Shown: positions 1-7,668 of the stretch, piece after piece
How positions within the stretch are numbered: the first letter of the stretch is position 1
Layout of the letters: each line of letters starts with the position of its first letter
IMG/VR virus record: IMGVR_UViG_2651869696_000012
Strand: one strand, 5' to 3'
DNA from: a virus
Taxonomy: Duplodnaviria; Heunggongvirae; Uroviricota; Caudoviricetes
Length of the DNA: 7,668 nt
Program-made: the position numbers and the translations under genes
Notes under the pieces: generated by a model
Databases searched by the model: none
What the model saw: only the letters and a program-made list of their open reading frames with translations
Told to the model about the DNA's origin: nothing

Positions 1-20
1 AACTTTTAAGATAAAAGATA

Positions 21-40
21 GATATCCCAGAAAGGATATC
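21..40. promoter_or_regulatory. Perfect inverted repeat GATATCC-n6-GGATATC upstream of the methyltransferase gene; candidate operator
   Basis: Read directly: gatatcc (21-27), spacer cagaaa, ggatatc (34-40). Lies about 80 bp upstream of the ATG at 121. Function is inferred only. Confidence 0.25.
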
Positions 41-120
41 CGTTTAGAAAACCTATTAAGTATCTCTTAAAAGAGAGCAAACCTTGTCAAGAGTGATTGC
101 AATAAAAATTTTTATTTCTT

Positions 121-783
121 ATGTCAATTGAGTGTATTTTAATCGGGAAGCATCATGGGGGTTCTGATTACTGGAGAACTCCATTTTTGTTATTTAAGAA
201 CTTACACCGTGAATTTATTTTCAGTCTGGATGGTGCTGCAACTGAGCATGACGCATTGTTGCCACGGTTCACCGATGATATCCACAATCAGTCATGGGTT
301 GGTGAAAGGGTATTCTGTAACCCACCATACAGCGACACTAAAACATTCCTCGTAAAAGCATCTGAAGCAGATTTAGCGGTATTCCTGATGCCCTACCGAC
401 CCCAAACCATATACTGGCTTAAGCACATCTTCACAAACCTGCTTTGCCATGAAATCCGTATTCTTCATCGTGCAGTTAAATGCCTTCCACCAGCAGGGCA
501 TAACGGGCTTGTTATTCGTTCACCGTTTCCAAGTGCAGTCGTTGTTTTTAAAAAAGAACCACGTAAGCATGAAATTACACAGATGGTTTGCTGTGCTGAC
601 ACGCTATTACCGTTAACCATCATTAACCGTGGTGGACTAAGAGGAAGACCCACCATTTACCCACCTGAGACGCTCGACAGCTTCACAAAGCTATACAGGC
701 AAGGAAAACCCATTAAGTGCATTGCAGATGCTCTCAGAATGCCTCTGAGCACGTCATACAGGATTGCTCAAAGGTTGAGCTAA
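121..783 (+). CDS. Phage-type N6-adenine DNA methyltransferase (Dam family) with C-terminal Hin/resolvase-like HTH domain
   Basis: 220-aa ORF. N-terminal part has W-R-T-P near the N-terminus, FSLDGAAT, and the catalytic NPPY tetrapeptide (..VFCNPPYSD..), the pattern I recall for the phage Dam family (Pfam PF05869). The C-terminal ~45 aa (GRPTIYPPETLDSFTKLYRQGKPIKCIADALRMPLSTSYRIAQRL) aligns by eye with the Hin invertase HTH (GRP...G.P...iA......ST.YR). No Shine-Dalgarno before the ATG (AT-rich leader); first in-frame start after the stop at 103-105. Confidence 0.8.
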   Translation: MSIECILIGKHHGGSDYWRTPFLLFKNLHREFIFSLDGAATEHDALLPRFTDDIHNQSWVGERVFCNPPYSDTKTFLVKASEADLAVFLMPYRPQTIYWLKHIFTNLLCHEIRILHRAVKCLPPAGHNGLVIRSPFPSAVVVFKKEPRKHEITQMVCCADTLLPLTIINRGGLRGRPTIYPPETLDSFTKLYRQGKPIKCIADALRMPLSTSYRIAQRLS

Positions 784-831
784 AATTCTCATATAGAGCA
801 CTGATTATGAGAGTGTTAAAGAGGCGATTTC

Positions 832-851
832 CCCTGTCTGGGGTTATTCGC
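832..851. repeat. Copy 1 of a ~20-bp motif CCCTKTCTGGGGTTAT(T)CGC containing a short CCC/GGG hairpin
   Basis: cccctgtctggggttattcgc read directly; a second copy lies ~170 bp downstream (1001-1019). Confidence 0.5.
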
Positions 852-1000
852 TTTTTACTGGAAGGGTTATTTTACAGAGGTTTTTCAAACCCCCTCAATA
901 ATAGAAACGAGCAACAAACGAAGAGCGAGAAATAAAATATTGAGACTGGTGAACGGGGCCTGTAAAGATTGTTTAAGAAGTCGGTTAAGAAGGTGGCTCT

Positions 1001-1019
1001 CCCTTTCTGGGGTTATCGC
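1001..1019. repeat. Copy 2 of the CCCTKTCTGGGGTTATCGC motif
   Basis: ccctttctggggttatcgc; shares the TCTGGGGTTAT core with the copy at 832-851. Confidence 0.5.
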
Positions 1020-1048
1020 CCTGCATCTTAGTGAGTCCAGGAAGTTCT

Positions 1049-1220
1049 CTGTGAAGGGTCTTGTCAGTCCTTTATATTGGGTGATTACAACTCTTTGAAA
1101 AATAAGAACTTTTAGAAATCACTGTTAAGGTTACAGAGTTAACTGTGAAGAGGCTTGTCAGTTCTCTATATATGGCTAATTACAACTTATTGAAAAATAA
1201 GAACTTTTAGAAGTTACTGT
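1049..1220. repeat. Two tandem ~78-bp imperfect direct repeats (units 1049-1125 and 1143-1220) separated by 17 bp
   Basis: Unit 1 ctgtgaagggtcttgtcagtcctttatattgggtgattacaactctttgaaaaataagaacttttagaaatcactgt; unit 2 ctgtgaagaggcttgtcagttctctatatatggctaattacaacttattgaaaaataagaacttttagaagttactgt. Roughly 80-85% identical by eye. Each starts CTGTGAAG and ends ACTGT. Confidence 0.7.
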
Positions 1221-1302
1221 CAGAGAGGTGAACACTTGATAGATACAGCTTTCCGGTTATGTCAAGCTGTTTTTTAATAGATAGCACAAAATGCTAAAGA
1301 TG

Positions 1303-1331
1303 CCCCTATACCATCTCGTACAGGGGGTTTT
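1303..1331 (+). terminator. Candidate intrinsic terminator (possibly bidirectional)
   Basis: Stem cccctatac (1303-1311) / gtacagggg (1318-1326) with one mismatch, 6-nt loop, then GTTTT. Sits between the repeat region and the 3' end of the minus-strand small ORF. Confidence 0.4.
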
Positions 1332-1340
1332 GAAGGGAGT

Positions 1341-1517
1341 TTAACGGGGTTCTGTGTGGTCATTATCCTTAAGGTCAAGCGTCCATGTACGACCGAACAG
1401 TTTAAATACAACAAGCACTCTGACGAGGATGTAGCGGAGTATCAGACCTGCAATCAGCCCAACACCTCCACCAGCCCATACATCAGGTGACCCCAGTTCA
1501 GGAGGGAGATTTACCAT
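1341..1517 (-). CDS. Hypothetical small membrane protein (58 aa from the internal Met; the track ORF extends to 1586)
   Basis: Minus-strand ORF with a hydrophobic segment (GGVGLIAGLILRYILVRVLVVF). The Met at 1515-1517 is preceded on the minus strand by AAGGA with a 6-nt spacer; the upstream Met at 1586 has no SD and lies inside repeat R1. It is the only minus-strand candidate and is locally GC-richer, so it could be spurious. Confidence 0.3.
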   Translation of the reverse strand: MVNLPPELGSPDVWAGGGVGLIAGLILRYILVRVLVVFKLFGRTWTLDLKDNDHTEPR

Positions 1518-1532
1518 TAGTTTTCCTTGTAA

Positions 1533-1629
1533 GACGCTTTCAATCGCATTCTGACACAAAAAAGTACCTGACCTTATAGTTGACATGAAGAGGCCGTTTA
1601 ACTCGTTACAGAGCGATTGAAGAAGTCTG
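1533..1629. repeat. R1: ~97-bp element with ~20-bp terminal inverted repeats; copy 1 of 2
   Basis: Left arm gacgctttcaatcgcattctgacacaaaaaa, variable core, right arm gtttaactcgttacagagcgattgaagaagtctg. Left arm and reverse complement of right arm match (GACgCTtTCAATCGC..TCTG vs GACttCTTCAATCGCTCTG). Second copy at 3200-3320. Confidence 0.7.
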
Positions 1630-3184: not shown

Positions 3185-3199
3185 AAAAATAGCTTCTCA

Positions 3200-3320
3200 G
3201 ACGCTCTCAATCGCATTCTAACGCAAAAAACTATCTTATTTTAGGGTGGGTAATACCACTGTACAGGCTACCCCTGAAAAAGACTGTTTAGCTCGTTACA
3301 GAGCGATTGAGGAGGTCTGG
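3200..3320. repeat. R2: ~121-bp element with ~20-bp terminal inverted repeats; copy 2 of 2
   Basis: Left arm gacgctctcaatcgcattctaacgcaaaaaa, 55-bp variable core, right arm gtttagctcgttacagagcgattgaggaggtctgg. Same arms as R1 at 1533-1629 with a different, longer core. Immediately after the cassette stop (3184) and 20 bp before the next gene. Confidence 0.7.
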
Positions 3321-3771: not shown

Positions 3772-3800
3772 TTGACAAATAATCTTAAGCATGACATAAT
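3772..3800 (+). promoter_or_regulatory. Sigma70-like promoter
   Basis: TTGACA (3772-3777), 17-bp spacer, CATAAT (3795-3800); AT-rich upstream. Confidence 0.5.
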
Positions 3801-3806
3801 TGTATA

Positions 3807-3998
3807 TATAGGAAGAGCAATTTTTCCTAAAATCATATTTTCAATAATCCGATGGATGGATATTCTGAGTTGGAAAGGTGCAATGCTTTTCGTCATGGCC
3901 TTTCAGTTTAGTCTGAGAGGTCATCTCAAAAAGTGCTTAATCATTCATTATTGAACCCTTACAGCTTTGCCCTAACTCATGATTAGGGCGTTTTCTTT
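3807..3998 (+). ncRNA. Candidate small RNA (~190 nt) between the promoter and an intrinsic terminator
   Basis: No ORF with an RBS in this unit (the 60-aa track ORF starts inside the -35 box). Internal 12-bp stem ATGGCCTTTCAG (3895-3906) / CTGAGAGGTCAT (3913-3924) with a 6-nt loop; its two non-Watson-Crick positions are G-U wobbles only in the + strand RNA. Ends at the terminator at 3969-3998. Coordinates approximate. Confidence 0.3.
3969..3998 (+). terminator. Intrinsic terminator
   Basis: Stem gccctaa (3969-3975) / ttagggc (3983-3989), 7-nt loop, followed by gTTTTCTTT. Confidence 0.6.
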
Positions 3999-4067
3999 AA
4001 GAGTTTTTAAACAGAGCTTTTAAAGAAAGTTTTTCCTGAAACTTCGTTAACGTTAAAGCAAACCTTC

Positions 4068-4101
4068 AAAGCCCTTCACAGATTATGTTTAGGGCTTTTT
4101 T
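4068..4101 (+). terminator. Second candidate intrinsic terminator
   Basis: aaagccct (4068-4075) / agggcttt (4091-4098) with a 15-nt loop, followed by a T run to 4101. Loop is large, so lower confidence. Confidence 0.45.
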
Positions 4102-4218
4102 CAGCTTTTAAAAAGCATACTTGGCAAACGCCTTTTAAGTCTCTTCTAAGTTCGTAGGCTGTCAGGTGTGCTTTTTAAAAACTGAAACATAAATTATCTT
4201 AGAAGAGGAAAAATAATA

Positions 4219-5161: not shown

Positions 5162-5210
5162 AAAAGATTGGTTGGGTGTATGAGATAGGTTCTATCGAAT
5201 CTATAACACG

Positions 5211-5252
5211 GGGAGAGATTATCGATATTATTCGGTAGTTTCTCCCTTTTTT
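5211..5252 (+). terminator. Candidate intrinsic terminator after the 71-aa gene
   Basis: Stem gggagaga (5211-5218) / tttctccc (5239-5246), one G-U, 20-nt loop, followed by TTTTTT (5247-5252). Confidence 0.5.
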
Positions 5253-5260
5253 GTATGTGT

Positions 5261-5330
5261 GCTACGTGAAATCTTCTGAACAGATATACCCACCAAAAAT
5301 TATTTTTTACGTAGCTCACGCTTAACAGAG
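5261..5330. repeat. Repeat A: 70-bp element directly upstream of the tape-measure-like gene; copy 1 of 2
   Basis: gctacgtgaaatcttctgaacagatatacccaccaaaaattattttttacgtagctcacgcttaacagag. Contains inverted repeat GCTACGT...ACGTAGC and ends in TTAACAGAG, followed by the SD GAGGTGA. Second copy at 7406-7475. Confidence 0.7.
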
Positions 5331-5344
5331 GTGAAATATGAACA

Positions 5345-7393
5345 ATGGCACAATTTAAAGTTGATAGTTTTATCGTTGAGCTAGGCTTCAATGAAAACGT
5401 TATTAAGAGCTTGCAAAGAGTTGAAAAGGCAGCTTTGCAGTCAGCACAAAGAATTGAAAAGAACCTTAACAAAGGCTTCAAGATTAATACCAAGCAACTT
5501 GACAGCAATCTGACAAGTTCTTTGAAGTCAATGGAAGGAAAAATTAATAAGACCTTTGACCGTCTGGAAGCTAGAGCAAGAAACACAAAAGTTTTCCGTT
5601 TCACAAGTCAGGTTAACGATGCTGTTAATCCTCCAAAACAACCGAGACAGCCACGAATTAGCGGCAACAGAGCAATCACAGCAGCTTATTCAGCTAATAT
5701 GTCTAAGTTAAAGGGCTTTGACCCTATTTTGCAGAAATACATCAAATCTCAGTTTTACGGGCTATCTGCTAAAGCCGGTTCAATGGATTCTTCAAAATTC
5801 AATGAGAAGCTGTCTCAGTTAAATGCTTCAGTCAGAGAAGCAATTGCTAAAGCTAAAGGTCATACATCCACCAGCATTAATGGTGACAGAGCAGCTAGCA
5901 GCCTTGATAACCTGTCTTCGGCAGCAGTCAAAACAGCAGGTGCATTTATCTCAATGCAGGCTGTATTAGCCAGTTATCAGAAGATTATGGAAGTTGGTTT
6001 ACAGCGTGCAAGTGCTGAGCGTTCAATTGATTTCGTATTTGATAAAGATGCAGGTCAGGTAAAAGAGTTCACAAAGTCATTAGCTCAAACAACGGGTTTA
6101 GATATCGCTGAACTGCAATCACAGTTTGCTGGTTTTGGTGCTTCAGCTAAAGAATCTATGGGTATTCAGGGTTCTGAAGAACTTTTTAAAAATATGATTG
6201 GCTATTCTCGTTTAATGGGTCGAAGTGAAGAAGAGATTAAGCGAGCATTAACAGCGCTATCGCAGATGGCTGGTAAGGGTCAGGTGATGGCTGAGGAGCT
6301 GAAAGGTCAATTAGCTGAAGCTGTTCCTGGTATGGTTCAGGTATTCGCTAAAGCAACCGGAAAGACTGAACAGGAATTATTTGATGCCATGAAGAAGGGG
6401 GCTTTAAAATCTGCCGATACTCTTCAGAAGGTCACTCAGGAACTGAATAAACAAATCACCGCTAAAGGTGGCTGGAAAGCCATTTCAGAAAGTACACAGG
6501 CACAACTAGGGAACTTGAAAAACTCTTGGAATACCACGCTTGACAGTATTTTCAGAGGTTCTGAAGATGGTTTACAGGACTTCACAAGAAGCTTAACAAC
6601 GCTTTTAAATAGTCTTGGTGGGAGTGGTAAAAGTCTTGGTGAATCTCTTGGTAGTCTCATGACTTCTATGTCAAGTGGTGTGGATTCATTGACTGATATC
6701 AGCTACAGGGTAAGAGCATTCTTTGATGAGGTGACATTAGCTTACCGTGGTTTAACCGATGAACAAAAGAAAGTAGTTGATGCTTTAGGTTCTGGCTTGA
6801 TTAATAGTTTAAAAGTCTTGGCTGGTGTTATTGCTGTGAATAAAGTTGTTGGTGTAACCAGAAGTATTTACGGGCTTATGACTGCTATCACAAGATTAGG
6901 TCAGGTTGCTGATACTACAGCGGATAACGTGAATAGAAAGAATGGGAAACCATCAAGACTGAATCTTGGGAATATGCTATTAGCTGGTAGCGCTCTCTAT
7001 GCAGGTTATGAAAGATTAGCCTCTACACCTGAACGAATGGAAGCACAAGCTAAATTACCAGAGTTAGCTAAAGAATCTGGACTTAAGCCAGTATTTACTA
7101 TGGACGATGTGAAAGGTTGGTTTAATAGTGCAGCTATGAATCTTGCTAACTTCCAGCATCCAGAATTAAACAACATTAAGCAAGATGCGGCATTAACGAA
7201 TACGGATATCCAAAGCCTGAGAGATGAAATTAGTGCTTTGAGCAAACGTATTCAGGAGCCTGTGAAAGTTTCACTTGGTGGTGAAGTTGCTATTAAACCA
7301 GATGAAACCAGCTTTATGACATTTAACAGCAGTCTGTACGACCAATACGCAGAAGCTACGCTATTAAGTTCATCATTCCCAGAAGATGATTGA
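5345..7393 (+). CDS. Tape-measure-domain protein (682 aa)
   Basis: Long ORF with GAGGTGA 11 nt upstream. Central region ..RALTALSQMAGKGQVMAEELKGQLAEAVPGMVQVFAKATGKTEQELFDAMKKGALKSADTLQKV.. matches, as I recall it, the conserved tape-measure domain of lambda-H-like proteins (TIGR02675-type). Gly/Ser/Ala/Lys-rich with hydrophobic segments (..LAGVIAVNKVVGV..). Short for a classical tape measure and lacks adjacent tail genes. Confidence 0.8.
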   Translation: MAQFKVDSFIVELGFNENVIKSLQRVEKAALQSAQRIEKNLNKGFKINTKQLDSNLTSSLKSMEGKINKTFDRLEARARNTKVFRFTSQVNDAVNPPKQPRQPRISGNRAITAAYSANMSKLKGFDPILQKYIKSQFYGLSAKAGSMDSSKFNEKLSQLNASVREAIAKAKGHTSTSINGDRAASSLDNLSSAAVKTAGAFISMQAVLASYQKIMEVGLQRASAERSIDFVFDKDAGQVKEFTKSLAQTTGLDIAELQSQFAGFGASAKESMGIQGSEELFKNMIGYSRLMGRSEEEIKRALTALSQMAGKGQVMAEELKGQLAEAVPGMVQVFAKATGKTEQELFDAMKKGALKSADTLQKVTQELNKQITAKGGWKAISESTQAQLGNLKNSWNTTLDSIFRGSEDGLQDFTRSLTTLLNSLGGSGKSLGESLGSLMTSMSSGVDSLTDISYRVRAFFDEVTLAYRGLTDEQKKVVDALGSGLINSLKVLAGVIAVNKVVGVTRSIYGLMTAITRLGQVADTTADNVNRKNGKPSRLNLGNMLLAGSALYAGYERLASTPERMEAQAKLPELAKESGLKPVFTMDDVKGWFNSAAMNLANFQHPELNNIKQDAALTNTDIQSLRDEISALSKRIQEPVKVSLGGEVAIKPDETSFMTFNSSLYDQYAEATLLSSSFPEDD

Positions 7394-7405
7394 TAATAGT
7401 CGAAT

Positions 7406-7475
7406 GCTACGTGAAATCTCTTGAACAGATATACCCACTGAAAAATAGAATTTACGTACAACACGCTTAACAGAG
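7406..7475. repeat. Repeat B: second copy of the 70-bp element, directly downstream of the tape-measure-like gene
   Basis: gctacgtgaaatctcttgaacagatatacccactgaaaaatagaatttacgtacaacacgcttaacagag; about 85% identical to copy A by eye; same length and same TTAACAGAG 3' end. Confidence 0.7.
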
Positions 7476-7533: not shown

Positions 7534-7668
7534 AATCAAAGGAGAATTTAATGATTTACACTAATCAGCTTCGGGTGATGCTGCCAACTTACTGATTTAG
7601 TGTATGATGGTGTTTTTGAGGTGCTCCAGTGGCTTCTGTTTCTATCAGCTGTCCCTCCTGTTCAGCTA

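What the first reader, a model, noticed from the sequence alone, without database searches (positions are those of the whole stretch)
784..1340. Repeat-dense non-coding region between the methyltransferase gene and the cassette
About 550 bp without a convincing + strand ORF contains a hairpin right after the methyltransferase stop (tctcata, 787-793 / tatgaga, 806-812), two copies of a CCCTKTCTGGGGTTAT(T)CGC motif ~170 bp apart, two tandem ~78-bp repeats (1049-1220) and a terminator-like hairpin (1303-1331). Such arrays are typical of replication origins, partition sites, arrays of regulator binding sites or structured non-coding RNA.
Basis: partly seen in the sequence, partly recalled or inferred. 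Interest (0 to 1): 0.5.

Follow-up and report, generated by a model that had tools for sequence, protein, structure and literature searches.

The report
Helper-phage-like control region of satellite
This 550-base stretch is a conserved non-coding control region of a small mobile element found in about one in ten E. coli genomes. The element borrows genes and non-coding sequence from Felix O1-like phages, so the region is probably where it plugs into that phage's machinery.

Summary
Window 784-1340 has no conserved ORF. It holds a hairpin after the methyltransferase stop, two copies of CCCTKTCTGGGGTTAT, a tandem repeat and a terminator hairpin. The repeat period is 94-95 bp, not 78, and many relatives carry one copy.

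The context is the main result. The window is part of an 11.2-11.4 kb integrative element with a large serine recombinase. Relatives occur in 528 of 5426 complete E. coli genomes, at several insertion sites, and once as a circular metagenome contig. Its tape-measure gene and the following tail gene are homologous to those of Felixounavirus phages (78-93% nucleotide identity for the latter).

The region is modular and selected: 0.88-0.90 identity, against 0.79 at neighbouring third codon positions. Parts derive from the 1.8 kb non-coding DNA around the phage's direct terminal repeat. The hairpin match is significant. The GTTAAGAAG array only resembles the repeat array at the phage genome terminus.

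Two modules form hairpins kept by compensatory changes. They carry an element-wide motif pair, TWACAGAG and CTGTGAAG.

Best reading, confidence 0.4: a helper-mimicking cis-acting region, probably for packaging or DNA processing, plus structured plus-strand RNA modules. An iteron origin and a partition site are not supported.

The parts
121..783 (+). Dam-type DNA N6-adenine methyltransferase with a C-terminal resolvase-type HTH. This is the upstream gene. In other variants it is replaced by a small serine recombinase or an AP2-domain protein.
   Evidence: Pfam PF05869 at 6.9e-14; HTH_7 weak at 1.6e-3. PHROG 111. Variant left arms.
784..816 (+). Hairpin directly after the methyltransferase stop codon (787-793 with 806-812). 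It is linked to the methyltransferase module.
   Evidence: -8.8 kcal/mol, z -2.9. Present only in methyltransferase-bearing relatives.
817..862 (+). Motif copy 1. An interrupted stem (GGCGA..CCCC/GGGG..TCGCT) followed by TTTTT, probably the intrinsic terminator of the methyltransferase gene. It is homologous to a hairpin in the terminal non-coding region of Felixounavirus phages.
   Evidence: -18.3 kcal/mol, z -2.1. 37 nt at 86% identity to REP8 79012-78978. Smith-Waterman z 11.
870..970 (+). Domain I, a long hairpin. The outer helix is TTTTACAG (870-877) with CTGTAAAG (960-967). The inner helix is CTCAATA (894-900) with TATTGAG (938-944). The loop is purine-rich and about 37 nt long. The domain starts with the element-wide TWACAGAG motif at 872.
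   Evidence: The inner helix sits at the same positions in three sequence families with different sequences. Single-sequence folds. Mosaic breakpoints fall at 872 and about 965-970.
971..997 (+). Short tandem array GTTTAAGAAG (971-980) and GGTTAAGAAGG (983-993), ending in TGGC (994-997). Relatives have 2-4 copies. It resembles the TGTTAAGAAA array (2-5 copies) that ends at the Felixounavirus direct-terminal-repeat terminus (...GTTAAGGGGGC|).
   Evidence: for the phage termini. Smith-Waterman z 4.5, 0 of 200 shuffles. Genome-wide nhmmer gives only E 2.3.
992..1020 (+). Motif copy 2, a hairpin (GGTGG..CCC/GGG..TCGCC) without a T-run. In some relatives a 25-nt palindrome identical to phage DNA sits just before it.
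   Evidence: 25 of 25 nt identical to REP8 in L012. The alignment and locus listings show the same insert in L013 and an expanded form in L007 and L011.
1041..1135 (+). 95-nt unit, copy 1. It holds an invariant CTGTGAAG (1049-1056), a variable hairpin (1055-1071), conserved TATAT..ATTACAACT..TTGAAAAATAAG..TTTTAGAA, a second helix (1080-1085 with 1116-1121), and TTACAGAG at 1131.
1136..1232 (+). 95-nt unit, copy 2. This is the only unit in single-copy relatives, and it ends in ACTGTCAGAGAGG.
   Evidence: Mean pairwise identity 0.90.
1236..1277 (-). Candidate minus-strand promoter pointing into the repeats. A-tract at 1277-1270, TTGACA at 1265-1260, an 18-nt spacer, and TATCAA at 1241-1236. It resembles the plus-strand promoter at 1754-1794.
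   Evidence: Inverted repeat I8. TGTCAAG is invariant in 16 relatives. The -10 element is weak, and the scanner did not call this site.
1303..1336 (.). Bidirectional terminator hairpin between the repeat region and the convergent small ORF.
   Evidence: Flipped in place in L009 and L011.
1341..1517 (-). Conserved small membrane-protein gene (58-62 aa, one hydrophobic helix), convergent with the region.
   Evidence: The protein is conserved in two allelic forms, including an in-frame indel. Identity is 0.92 at codon positions 1 and 2 against 0.79 at position 3. PGAP annotates it in several genomes.

Best explanation
Window 784-1340 is the non-coding control region of an 11.2-11.4 kb integrative element that lives off Felix O1-like (Felixounavirus) virulent phages. 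The region is built from exchangeable modules:
- two hairpins that close the methyltransferase gene;
- a 100-nt long-hairpin domain;
- a short GTTAAGAAG repeat array plus a hairpin, related to the helper phage's terminal-repeat end and its neighbouring hairpin;
- one or two copies of a 95-nt hairpin module;
- a bidirectional terminator.

I think the central module imitates the helper's genome-end region. Helper DNA-processing factors, most probably the packaging machinery, would then act on the element.

The flanking hairpin modules are probably made as plus-strand RNA. They carry the element-wide motif pair TWACAGAG and CTGTGAAG. That pair would tie the region to the regulation of the element's own operons.

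**Shown:**
- the anatomy of the region;
- its conservation;
- the modular mosaicism;
- the gene and sequence homology to the phage;
- the compensatory helices.

**Inferred:**
- that the element is transferred by the phage;
- that the array is a packaging or terminus site;
- that the modules act as RNA.
For: **Element context.**
- Relatives occur in 528 of 5426 complete E. coli genomes.
- They are inserted in yecE, next to yciI/tonB, or next to ymdF, always with a 507-aa serine recombinase at one end.
- There was no match in the plasmid collection. In the phage collection only the IS1 end of the window matched at megablast level.
- One metagenome contig of 11,233 bp has a 55-nt terminal overlap and holds element DNA only.

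**Helper link.**
- The gene after the tape-measure gene is 78-93% nucleotide-identical and 72% amino-acid-identical to the Felixounavirus REP8 gene after its own tape-measure gene.
- The tape-measure protein's best phage relatives are all Ounavirinae.

**Non-coding homology to the phage's 1.8 kb terminal region.**
- Hairpin 819-855.
- A 25-nt palindrome in variants.
- A 24 of 24 nt match at window 5178-5201.
- A 250-300 bp homolog of the other terminal-repeat boundary in the left arm of all six variants tested.

**Phage termini.**
- Felixounaviruses package with a 581-bp direct terminal repeat (PMC8303462; annotated in MW481326).
- The terminus follows a variable-number TGTTAAGAAA array, and window 961-997 parallels that array.

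**Selection and structure.**
- Units and block E show 0.88-0.90 pairwise identity, against 0.79 at neighbouring third codon positions.
- Compensatory helices are seen.
Against: - The match of the repeat array to the phage terminus is weak. A profile search of the whole phage genome gives E 2.3 there.
- The two boundary-like sequences in the element lie in the opposite relative orientation to the phage. They cannot simply define phage-like ends, and no inverted variant was found.
- No contig ends at these sites.
- An 11 kb genome would badly underfill an 86 kb capsid, and no capsid-resizing gene was recognised.
- No promoter for a plus-strand RNA was found.
- Thermodynamic z-scores of the units are near zero.
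- RNAalifold on MAFFT alignments predicts little or nothing.
- The 95-nt units have no phage counterpart.
Confidence: 0.4

Rival explanations
1. Regulatory RNA locus in the style of P4 CI or P1 c4. The region would be transcribed into structured RNA whose CUGUGAAG(G) and CUGUAAAG sequences pair with the UWACAGAG-type sequences in the leaders of the element's operons. That pairing would hold those operons off, or time them, until a helper infects.
For: - TWACAGAG occurs 9 times in the window, all on the plus strand, mostly in leaders or at ribosome-binding sites. Only 0.58 are expected.
- In the three complete loci examined the motif is almost confined to the element. The only copy seen in flanking chromosome is one in L003.
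- CTGTRAAG occurs three times in the region.
- TCTGTGAAGG has a perfect conserved complement, CCTTCACAGA, in the 410-nt leader of ORF234 in the 32 loci and contigs that cover both sites ([I15], 102).
- Helices are kept by compensatory changes, and G.U pairs occur only on the plus strand.
- Terminators bracket the region.
Against: - The complementarity is only 6-10 nt.
- Both partners are invariant, so there is no covariation test. The variable part of the unit does not covary with the target.
- Several motif variants would break the pairing.
- No promoter was found.
- No Rfam family matches.
Confidence: 0.25
2. Array of DNA sites for the element's own DNA-binding proteins. Candidates are the resolvase-type HTH on the methyltransferase or small recombinase, the AP2 protein, or a small downstream protein. 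The region would then act as an operator and promoter region, with one motif present in both orientations.
For: - TTACAG and CTGTAA/CTGTGA are the same sequence in two orientations.
- The alternative left-arm genes seen all carry, or are annotated with, DNA-binding domains.
- A promoter-like site points into the repeats and resembles the ORF185 promoter.
- The long invariant stretches in the units fit protein sites better than RNA helices.
Against: - The motif upstream of genes is strictly on one strand.
- Helix sequences change while pairing is kept. A sequence-specific protein site would not tolerate that.
- No binding protein is identified.
Confidence: 0.15
3. Origin of replication of the element. 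The repeats would be iterons for an element-encoded initiator, as in Vibrio PLE, or a copy of the helper's origin.
For: - The region is repeat-rich, non-coding and relatively AT-rich at 1100-1300 (29-35% GC), and lies next to conserved genes of unknown function.
- The phage's terminal region, to which parts are homologous, is packed with TAACA-type repeats and an AT-rich tract and could hold an origin.
- PLE and the E. coli satellites of Barth et al. have origins next to repA.
Against: - The unit is 95 bp long, with only one copy in many relatives.
- There are no DnaA boxes.
- No RepA_N or other initiator was found. ORF185 has no family and no structural match.
- Compensatory helix changes are not expected of iterons.
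Confidence: 0.12
4. Decaying leftovers of recombination with phage DNA, plus ordinary terminators, with no function of their own.
For: - Blocks B and C are mosaic and variable (0.69-0.73 identity).
- The tandem duplication is polymorphic.
- Folding energies are unremarkable.
Against: - Units and block E are as conserved as non-synonymous sites of the neighbouring gene, and more conserved than its third codon positions.
- The region is present in every variant, including those with different left arms and insertion sites.
- Helices are kept by compensatory change.
Confidence: 0.05

Closest known systems
Helper-derived packaging sites of phage satellites (P4 cos copied from P2; cos sites of SaPIbov5-type and E. 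coli PICIs)
   Same: A small integrative element without terminase genes carries non-coding DNA related to the helper's genome-end region. It also carries a few helper-related virion genes.
   Different: - The helper here packages by direct terminal repeats, not cos.
- The match at the terminus itself is weak.
- The two boundary-like sequences are in the wrong relative orientation.
- Packaging was not shown.
Vibrio cholerae PLE, satellite of the virulent phage ICP1
   Same: - A large serine recombinase sits at one end.
- Most genes have unknown function.
- The helper candidate is a virulent myovirus.
- Long non-coding stretches with repeats are present.
   Different: - PLE is about 18 kb and has a RepA_N initiator with an iteron origin and its own packaging specificity. 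None of these was found here.
- There is no sequence relationship.
Putative E. coli satellites of Barth, Nguyen and Seed 2023 (NAR Genom Bioinform, PMC10448857)
   Same: They are E. coli integrative elements of about 13 kb that also encode a tape-measure protein and one baseplate component but no full tail module. A subset has a serine recombinase.
   Different: - Those elements have RepA_N, a major capsid protein and a decoration protein.
- Their linked phages are Justusliebigvirus.
- Five genomes carrying the present element are absent from their list.
- The present element is linked to Ounavirinae.
P4 CI RNA with seqA/seqB/seqC, and P1 c4 antisense RNA
   Same: Short sequences are repeated on one strand, with complementary partners in the leaders of the element's own operons.
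   Different: - The complementarity is shorter.
- No RNA was demonstrated.
- There is no sequence or Rfam relationship.
Short-repeat arrays at the concatemer junction of T7-type phages (from my own knowledge, not tested here)
   Same: Arrays of short repeats lie within and next to a direct terminal repeat. The Felixounavirus terminal region shows this pattern.
   Different: The phage family and the sequences are different. The role of such repeats is not settled even in T7.

Membership tests
Iteron-type replication origin | Three or more direct repeats of about 17-22 bp at regular spacing | tested here: not met
   The large repeat has a 94-95 bp period, with 1.8 copies here and one copy in many relatives. 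The only short array is the 12-13 nt GTTAAGAAG repeat, 2 copies here and 2-4 in relatives.
Iteron-type replication origin | A cognate initiator gene next to the repeats | tested here: not met
   No Rep, RepA_N or primase family in any of the 10 ORFs. The ORF185 model (pLDDT 64) has no PDB fold match.
Iteron-type replication origin | DnaA boxes and an AT-rich unwinding element | tested here: not met
   No TTWTNCACA in 784-1340. GC falls only to 29-35%.
Plasmid or phage partition site (parS) | ParA/ParB-type genes nearby and ParB-box inverted repeats | tested here: not met
   No partition protein family in the window's ORFs, and none annotated in three complete elements. The element is chromosomally integrated.
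Satellite packaging site copied from the helper | A helper phage can be named from shared genes | tested here: met
   The gene after the tape-measure gene is 78-93% nucleotide-identical to Felixounavirus REP8. The tape-measure protein's best hits are Ounavirinae. This is a computational link only.
Satellite packaging site copied from the helper | Sequence homology to the helper's terminase cleavage or recognition site | tested here: inconclusive
   The architecture parallels the phage terminus array, with local z 4.5. Genome-wide, nhmmer gives E 2.3. Neighbouring hairpin and palindrome homologies are significant.
Satellite packaging site copied from the helper | Element DNA is found in helper particles with ends at the site | not testable with these tools
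   Only a circular-looking metagenome contig was found. No contig ends at 961-1020.
Phage satellite (general) | An integrase, excision, no full virion gene set, and dependence on a helper | tested here: inconclusive
   The element has a serine recombinase, several insertion sites, a circular contig, and only two tail-related genes. Dependence on a helper was not tested.
Antisense or immunity RNA of P4 CI / P1 c4 type | Repeated sequences complementary between a small RNA and the leaders it controls | tested here: inconclusive
   A 10-nt perfect complement is conserved in all 32 loci and contigs that cover both sites. The pairing to TWACAGAG sites is 6-8 nt and imperfect. There is no covariation.
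Antisense or immunity RNA of P4 CI / P1 c4 type | A stable processed small RNA exists | not testable with these tools
   No expression data are available. No Rfam match.
Rho-independent terminator | A G+C-rich stem followed by a U-run | tested here: met
   817-862: -18.3 kcal/mol followed by UUUUU. 1303-1336: a 9-bp stem, then UUUU on the plus strand and CAUCUUU on the minus strand.
Any curated RNA family (Rfam 15) | A match to a covariance model | tested here: not met
   Nothing in 784-1340 at E up to 1. Nothing in the whole element or the phage terminal region at gathering score.

The most novel reading that the evidence does not exclude
The window belongs to an undescribed family of satellites of Felix O1-like virulent coliphages. 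Window 784-1340 would be its helper-recognition region: a condensed imitation of the phage's terminal-repeat end used to get satellite DNA cut and packaged. It would be combined with structured RNA modules that keep the satellite silent until the helper arrives. This would be the first satellite shown to exploit a phage that packages by direct terminal repeats.
Probability: 0.3. Interest if true: 0.8.

Novelty: new variant of a known kind. Interest (0 to 1): 0.6.

Why it matters
Felix O1-like phages are common virulent phages of E. coli and Salmonella. They are used in phage typing, biocontrol and therapy.

An element present in about a tenth of E. coli genomes carries its own versions of two of their tail genes and pieces of their genome-end DNA. 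Such an element is likely to ride on these phages, interfere with them, or both.

If the region studied here is where the phage machinery is captured, two consequences follow:
- It gives a direct handle on how a satellite can exploit terminal-repeat packaging, which is not known for any satellite.
- It gives a simple marker for strains that may resist or parasitise therapeutic Felixounaviruses.

I found no description of this element family in six literature searches. The only similar E. coli elements in print are linked to a different phage group.

Tried and rejected
- **Integron attC sites, retron msr/msd, CRISPR-like repeats, TnpB/IscB guide RNAs.** I considered these from the inverted repeats around 1526-1629 and 3193-3319. 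I dropped them because no reverse transcriptase, Cas, TnpB or integron integrase is present and the GTTRRRY consensus is not met.
- **TWACAGAG as a helper-phage promoter.** In REP8 the motif is not enriched upstream of genes and lies mostly inside coding DNA. A k-mer enrichment test was uninformative.
- **An invertible switch driven by the small serine recombinase.** The left-arm boundary homolog has the same orientation in every locus where it was detected, whichever recombinase type or orientation is present.
- **ORF185 as a replication initiator.** It has no Pfam or PHROG function. All listed homologs are unannotated enterobacterial proteins. The AlphaFold model has pLDDT 64 and no PDB match at E below 0.1.
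- **RNAalifold on MAFFT alignments.** For the units it gave only a weak hairpin, at -2.1 kcal/mol. For domain I it gave nothing, because the three families are misaligned by one column. I scored the helices directly instead.
- **Rfam.** No match.
- **nhmmer profile of the GTTAAGAAG array against the whole phage genome.** Not significant.
- **Sigma-70 promoter for a plus-strand RNA.** None found.
- **CsrA-type GGA motif.** I considered this by eye and rejected it because GGA is not conserved after ACAGAG.
- **Plasmid collection.** No match.
Full report
**1. What is in the sequence**

Window 784-1340 follows the stop codon (781-783) of a Dam-type methyltransferase gene at 121-783. Pfam gives PF05869 at 6.9e-14 with a weak C-terminal resolvase-type HTH.

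- The hairpin 787-793/806-812 folds at -8.8 kcal/mol with z -2.9.
- CCCTKTCTGGGGTTAT occurs exactly twice, at 832 and 1001, with none expected by chance.
- The tandem repeat at 1049-1220 has a period of 95 bp, 1.8 copies and 85% identity (families D3 and D5).
- The hairpin 1303-1331 is real but stronger on the minus strand: -15.6 kcal/mol and z -3.1, against -11.8 and z -0.5 on the plus strand.
- No ORF is shared among relatives. The longest ORFs are 16-86 aa in varying frames and strands.

**2. What the window belongs to**

The last 95 bases are IS1. The rest has no counterpart in the plasmid collection. It has no close counterpart in the phage collection either.

It does match 528 of 5426 complete E. 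coli genomes at 85-91% identity, always on the chromosome. In three annotated examples the element is 11.4 kb. It lies inside yecE or between yciI and tonB. A further example lies next to ymdF.

The layout of the element, in order, is:
- a 1.6 kb unannotated left arm;
- the methyltransferase, or in other variants a small serine recombinase or an AP2-domain protein;
- the region studied here;
- four small genes, including an HNH endonuclease;
- further small genes;
- a tape-measure protein;
- a gene annotated 'phage baseplate protein';
- a 507-aa serine recombinase on the opposite strand.

Among one genome per species, the conserved downstream gene (ORF185) was found only in Escherichia albertii and one Citrobacter. 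Protein searches add Shigella and some Salmonella.

A metagenome scan found 56 contigs. One of them, 11,233 bp long, has a 55-nt terminal overlap and contains element DNA only, which is the signature of a circular form.

**3. The phage link**

A sensitive search of the region against phages gave one marginal hit. Window 819-855 matched an unannotated stretch of Felixounavirus phages REP8 to REP12. Reading that stretch showed further shared sequence, so I fetched the whole REP8 genome and compared it with several element variants.
- The element's 'baseplate' gene is 78% (L001) to 93% (L003) nucleotide-identical to the REP8 gene that follows its tape-measure gene. At the protein level it is 72% identical.
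- The first 114 nt of the tape-measure gene are 77% identical. The rest of the protein is about 30% identical to Ounavirinae tape-measure proteins only.
- No other element protein has a REP8 homolog.

Non-coding matches all fall in one 1.8 kb gene-free region of the phage, REP8 78775-80570. They are:
- the hairpin (Smith-Waterman z 11);
- a 25-nt palindrome present in some variants;
- 24 of 24 nt at window 5178-5201;
- a 250-300 bp homolog in the left arm of all six variants tested.

That phage region contains the genome ends. Felixounavirus Pr103Blw packages with a 581-bp direct terminal repeat (PMC8303462). The repeat is annotated in its record, and several independent records start at the same base.

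Read in the element's orientation, the repeat ends ...TTGTTAAGAAATTGTTAAGAAAATGTTAAGGGGGC|. Other phages have 2-5 copies of the short repeat.

**4. Anatomy of the region in the light of 22 relatives**

The region is a chain of modules. Mosaic breakpoints fall at 872, about 965-970, 988 and 1041.

- **(a) 784-862.** A hairpin, then motif copy 1. Copy 1 is an interrupted stem followed by TTTTT, at -18.3 kcal/mol. I read it as the terminator of the methyltransferase gene. This part occurs only with that gene.
- **(b) 870-970, domain I.** It begins with TTACAGAG. In three sequence families, 59-69% identical to each other, a 6-7 bp helix sits at the same positions with different sequences: CTCAATA/TATTGAG, TGATAAG/CTTATCA and CAATAGG/TCTATTG. 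It encloses a purine-rich loop of about 37 nt. An outer helix, TTTACAG/CTGTAAA, is kept in two of the three families.
- **(c) 971-997.** GTTTAAGAAG and GGTTAAGAAGG, ending in TGGC. Relatives have 2-4 copies.
   - The preceding TGTAAAGATTG and the array parallel the phage's TGTAGGGATTG plus its array.
   - The local alignment is better than all 200 shuffles, at z 4.5.
   - A profile search of the whole phage genome scores the terminus at only E 2.3, although 4 of the 9 best hits fall in the 1.8 kb terminal region.
   - I therefore treat this as a lead, not a result.
- **(d) 992-1020.** Motif copy 2, a hairpin without a T-run. In L012 and L013 the phage palindrome sits just before it, and L007 and L011 carry an expanded form of it.
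- **(e) 1041-1232.** One or two 95-nt units.
   - Each has an invariant CTGTGAAG and a hairpin whose stem changes by compensation. One pair is A-U in 17 units and G-C in 13.
   - Long invariant stretches follow, and then a second helix with many U.G pairs on the plus strand. Those pairs would be A.C mismatches on the other strand.
   - Overall, 92% of cells pair, against 33-48% when the partner is slid. There are 22 double changes against 10 +/- 3.5 in shuffles.
   - Folding energies are ordinary, with z about -0.4.
- **(f) 1233-1340.**
   - A conserved stretch holds a promoter-like site on the minus strand: an A-tract, a perfect TTGACA, and a weak -10 element TATCAA. It resembles the plus-strand promoter at 1754-1794.
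   - The hairpin at 1303-1331 follows, and it is inverted in place in two relatives.
   - Beyond it lies a minus-strand gene at 1341-1517 for a 58-62 aa membrane protein. That gene evolves as a protein: 0.92 identity at codon positions 1 and 2 against 0.79 at position 3, with an in-frame indel between alleles.

**5. Selection**

Mean pairwise identity is 0.90 for the unit and 0.88 for block (f). The neighbouring gene's third codon positions stand at 0.79. Blocks (b) and (c) are more variable, at 0.69-0.73, because they exist as alternative families.

**6. An element-wide motif pair**

TWACAGAG occurs 9 times in the window, all on the plus strand, with 0.58 expected. In three full loci it is almost confined to the element. 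One copy in L003 lies in flanking chromosome. It sits in leaders or at ribosome-binding sites at 1808, 2386, 3296, 5323 and 7468, and twice inside the region at 872 and 1131.

Its partial complement, CTGTRAAG, occurs three times in the region. The extended form TCTGTGAAGG has a perfect complement at about 4072-4081, in the long leader of ORF234, in the 32 loci and contigs that cover both sites. That target does not covary with the variable hairpin of the unit.

The pair could close RNA domains, pair in trans, or be one DNA site in two orientations. The data do not decide between these.

**7. How it most likely works**

The element has no terminase, capsid or recognisable replication gene. It does have fresh gene exchange with Felixounaviruses, and homologs of both boundaries of their terminal repeat. 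An element like that must be recognised by helper factors somewhere, and this region is one of the two places with helper-like non-coding DNA.

I therefore rank a helper-mimicking cis-acting role first, at 0.4. Packaging or DNA processing at 961-1020 is the most probable form of that role. The hairpin modules would act as plus-strand RNA tied to the element's own regulation.

The main objections are these.
- The terminus match is weak.
- The two boundary-like sequences face the wrong way relative to the phage. No inverted variant was found among the loci where the boundary homolog was detected.
- There is a size mismatch between an 11 kb element and an 86 kb capsid.
- No promoter was found for the proposed RNA.

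The rivals are:
- a P4 CI-like regulatory RNA (0.25);
- an array of protein-binding sites (0.15);
- an origin of replication (0.12), with no iterons, DnaA boxes or initiator;
- functionless remnants (0.05).

**8. Comparison with what is known**

The closest functional parallels are the helper-derived packaging sites of P4 and of cos-type SaPIs and PICIs, and the overall design of Vibrio PLE.

The closest described E. coli elements are the putative satellites of Barth et al. 2023. Those also carry a tape-measure gene and one baseplate gene. They differ in having RepA_N and capsid genes, and they are linked to Justusliebigvirus phages. Five genomes carrying the present element are not in their list.

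Six literature searches found no description of a Felixounavirus-linked element. No Rfam family matches.

**9. Verdict**

The finding is real and more interesting than its wording suggests, but its function is inferred. It is a new variant of a known kind: a satellite-type control region that copies helper non-coding DNA. Interest 0.6.

Noticed in passing
window 7574-7668: The window ends in IS1 (95 of 95 nt identical to IS1 in P1 and other records). IS1 cuts the element's 'baseplate' gene about 25 bp after its start at 7551.
   Followed up: partly
window 5345-7393 and L001 22379-23152: The element carries its own tape-measure protein (682 aa, about 30% identical to Felixounavirus tape-measure proteins, with a near-identical N-terminal 38 codons). 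It also carries a copy of the phage gene that follows the tape-measure gene (72% aa; up to 93% nt identity in L003). It has no other tail genes. This suggests substitution into, or poisoning of, helper tails.
   Followed up: partly
L057 (metagenome contig ERZ506742 NODE_633, 11233 bp): The contig has a 55-nt terminal overlap and contains only element DNA, with the recombinase end joined to the left arm. It looks like the excised circular form. I did not analyse the attP junction.
   Followed up: partly
window 1526-1629 and 3193-3319: A roughly 100-nt module is repeated twice (80-86% identity). Each copy has a long imperfect inverted repeat (AGACGC..CAATCGC / GCGATTG..GTCT) and ends in GTTACAGAGCG. 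The first copy is absent from some relatives (L004, L005, L007, L014). A sequence in the left arm (L001 about 14430) is the reverse complement of window 3191-3207.
   Followed up: partly
window 5260-5330 and 7405-7475: A 71-nt module (85% identity) precedes both the tape-measure gene and the baseplate gene. It holds a hairpin (CTACGTGAAA/TTTTACGTAG) and ends in CTTAACAGAG. TTTACGTAGC resembles the TTTACGTAAC repeats just outside the phage terminus.
   Followed up: no
window 5178-5201: 24 of 24 nt are identical to Felixounavirus REP8 78919-78896. The stretch contains the palindrome GATAGgttCTATC and lies just before a strong terminator at 5210-5247. It is a possible shared protein-binding site.
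   Followed up: no
window 3-60: 58 nt at 86% identity to a REP8 intergenic region (2209-2264) between divergent genes. The stretch contains the hairpin GATATCCCAGAAAGGATATC and lies just upstream of the methyltransferase gene.
   Followed up: no
window 3772-4218: The best sigma-70-like promoter in the window (TTGACA, 17 nt, CATAAT; 11 of 12) starts a leader of about 410 nt before ORF234. The leader has a 28-nt inverted repeat (4099-4126 with 4160-4187) and the conserved CCTTCACAGA complement of the unit motif.
   Followed up: partly
window 1341-1517, minus strand: A conserved small gene encodes a 58-62 aa protein with one hydrophobic helix, in two allelic forms. It could be a toxin, an exclusion protein or a holin-like protein. 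No family was found.
   Followed up: partly
L004 945-1493, L007 230-805, L010 1256-1780 and other left arms: The slot before the region is variable cargo. It holds a methyltransferase-HTH, one of two unrelated small serine recombinases in either orientation, or an AP2-domain protein that is 42% identical to part of a REP8 HNH endonuclease.
   Followed up: partly
L033 29000-33800 (REP8 early region): Each small early gene of the phage is preceded by a near-identical leader (ATCAACGGGGAGG..CTTCCCCACTAAGTAAAACCCTTAAACTAGGAGATTC). This is a repeated 5' UTR module with a hairpin.
   Followed up: no
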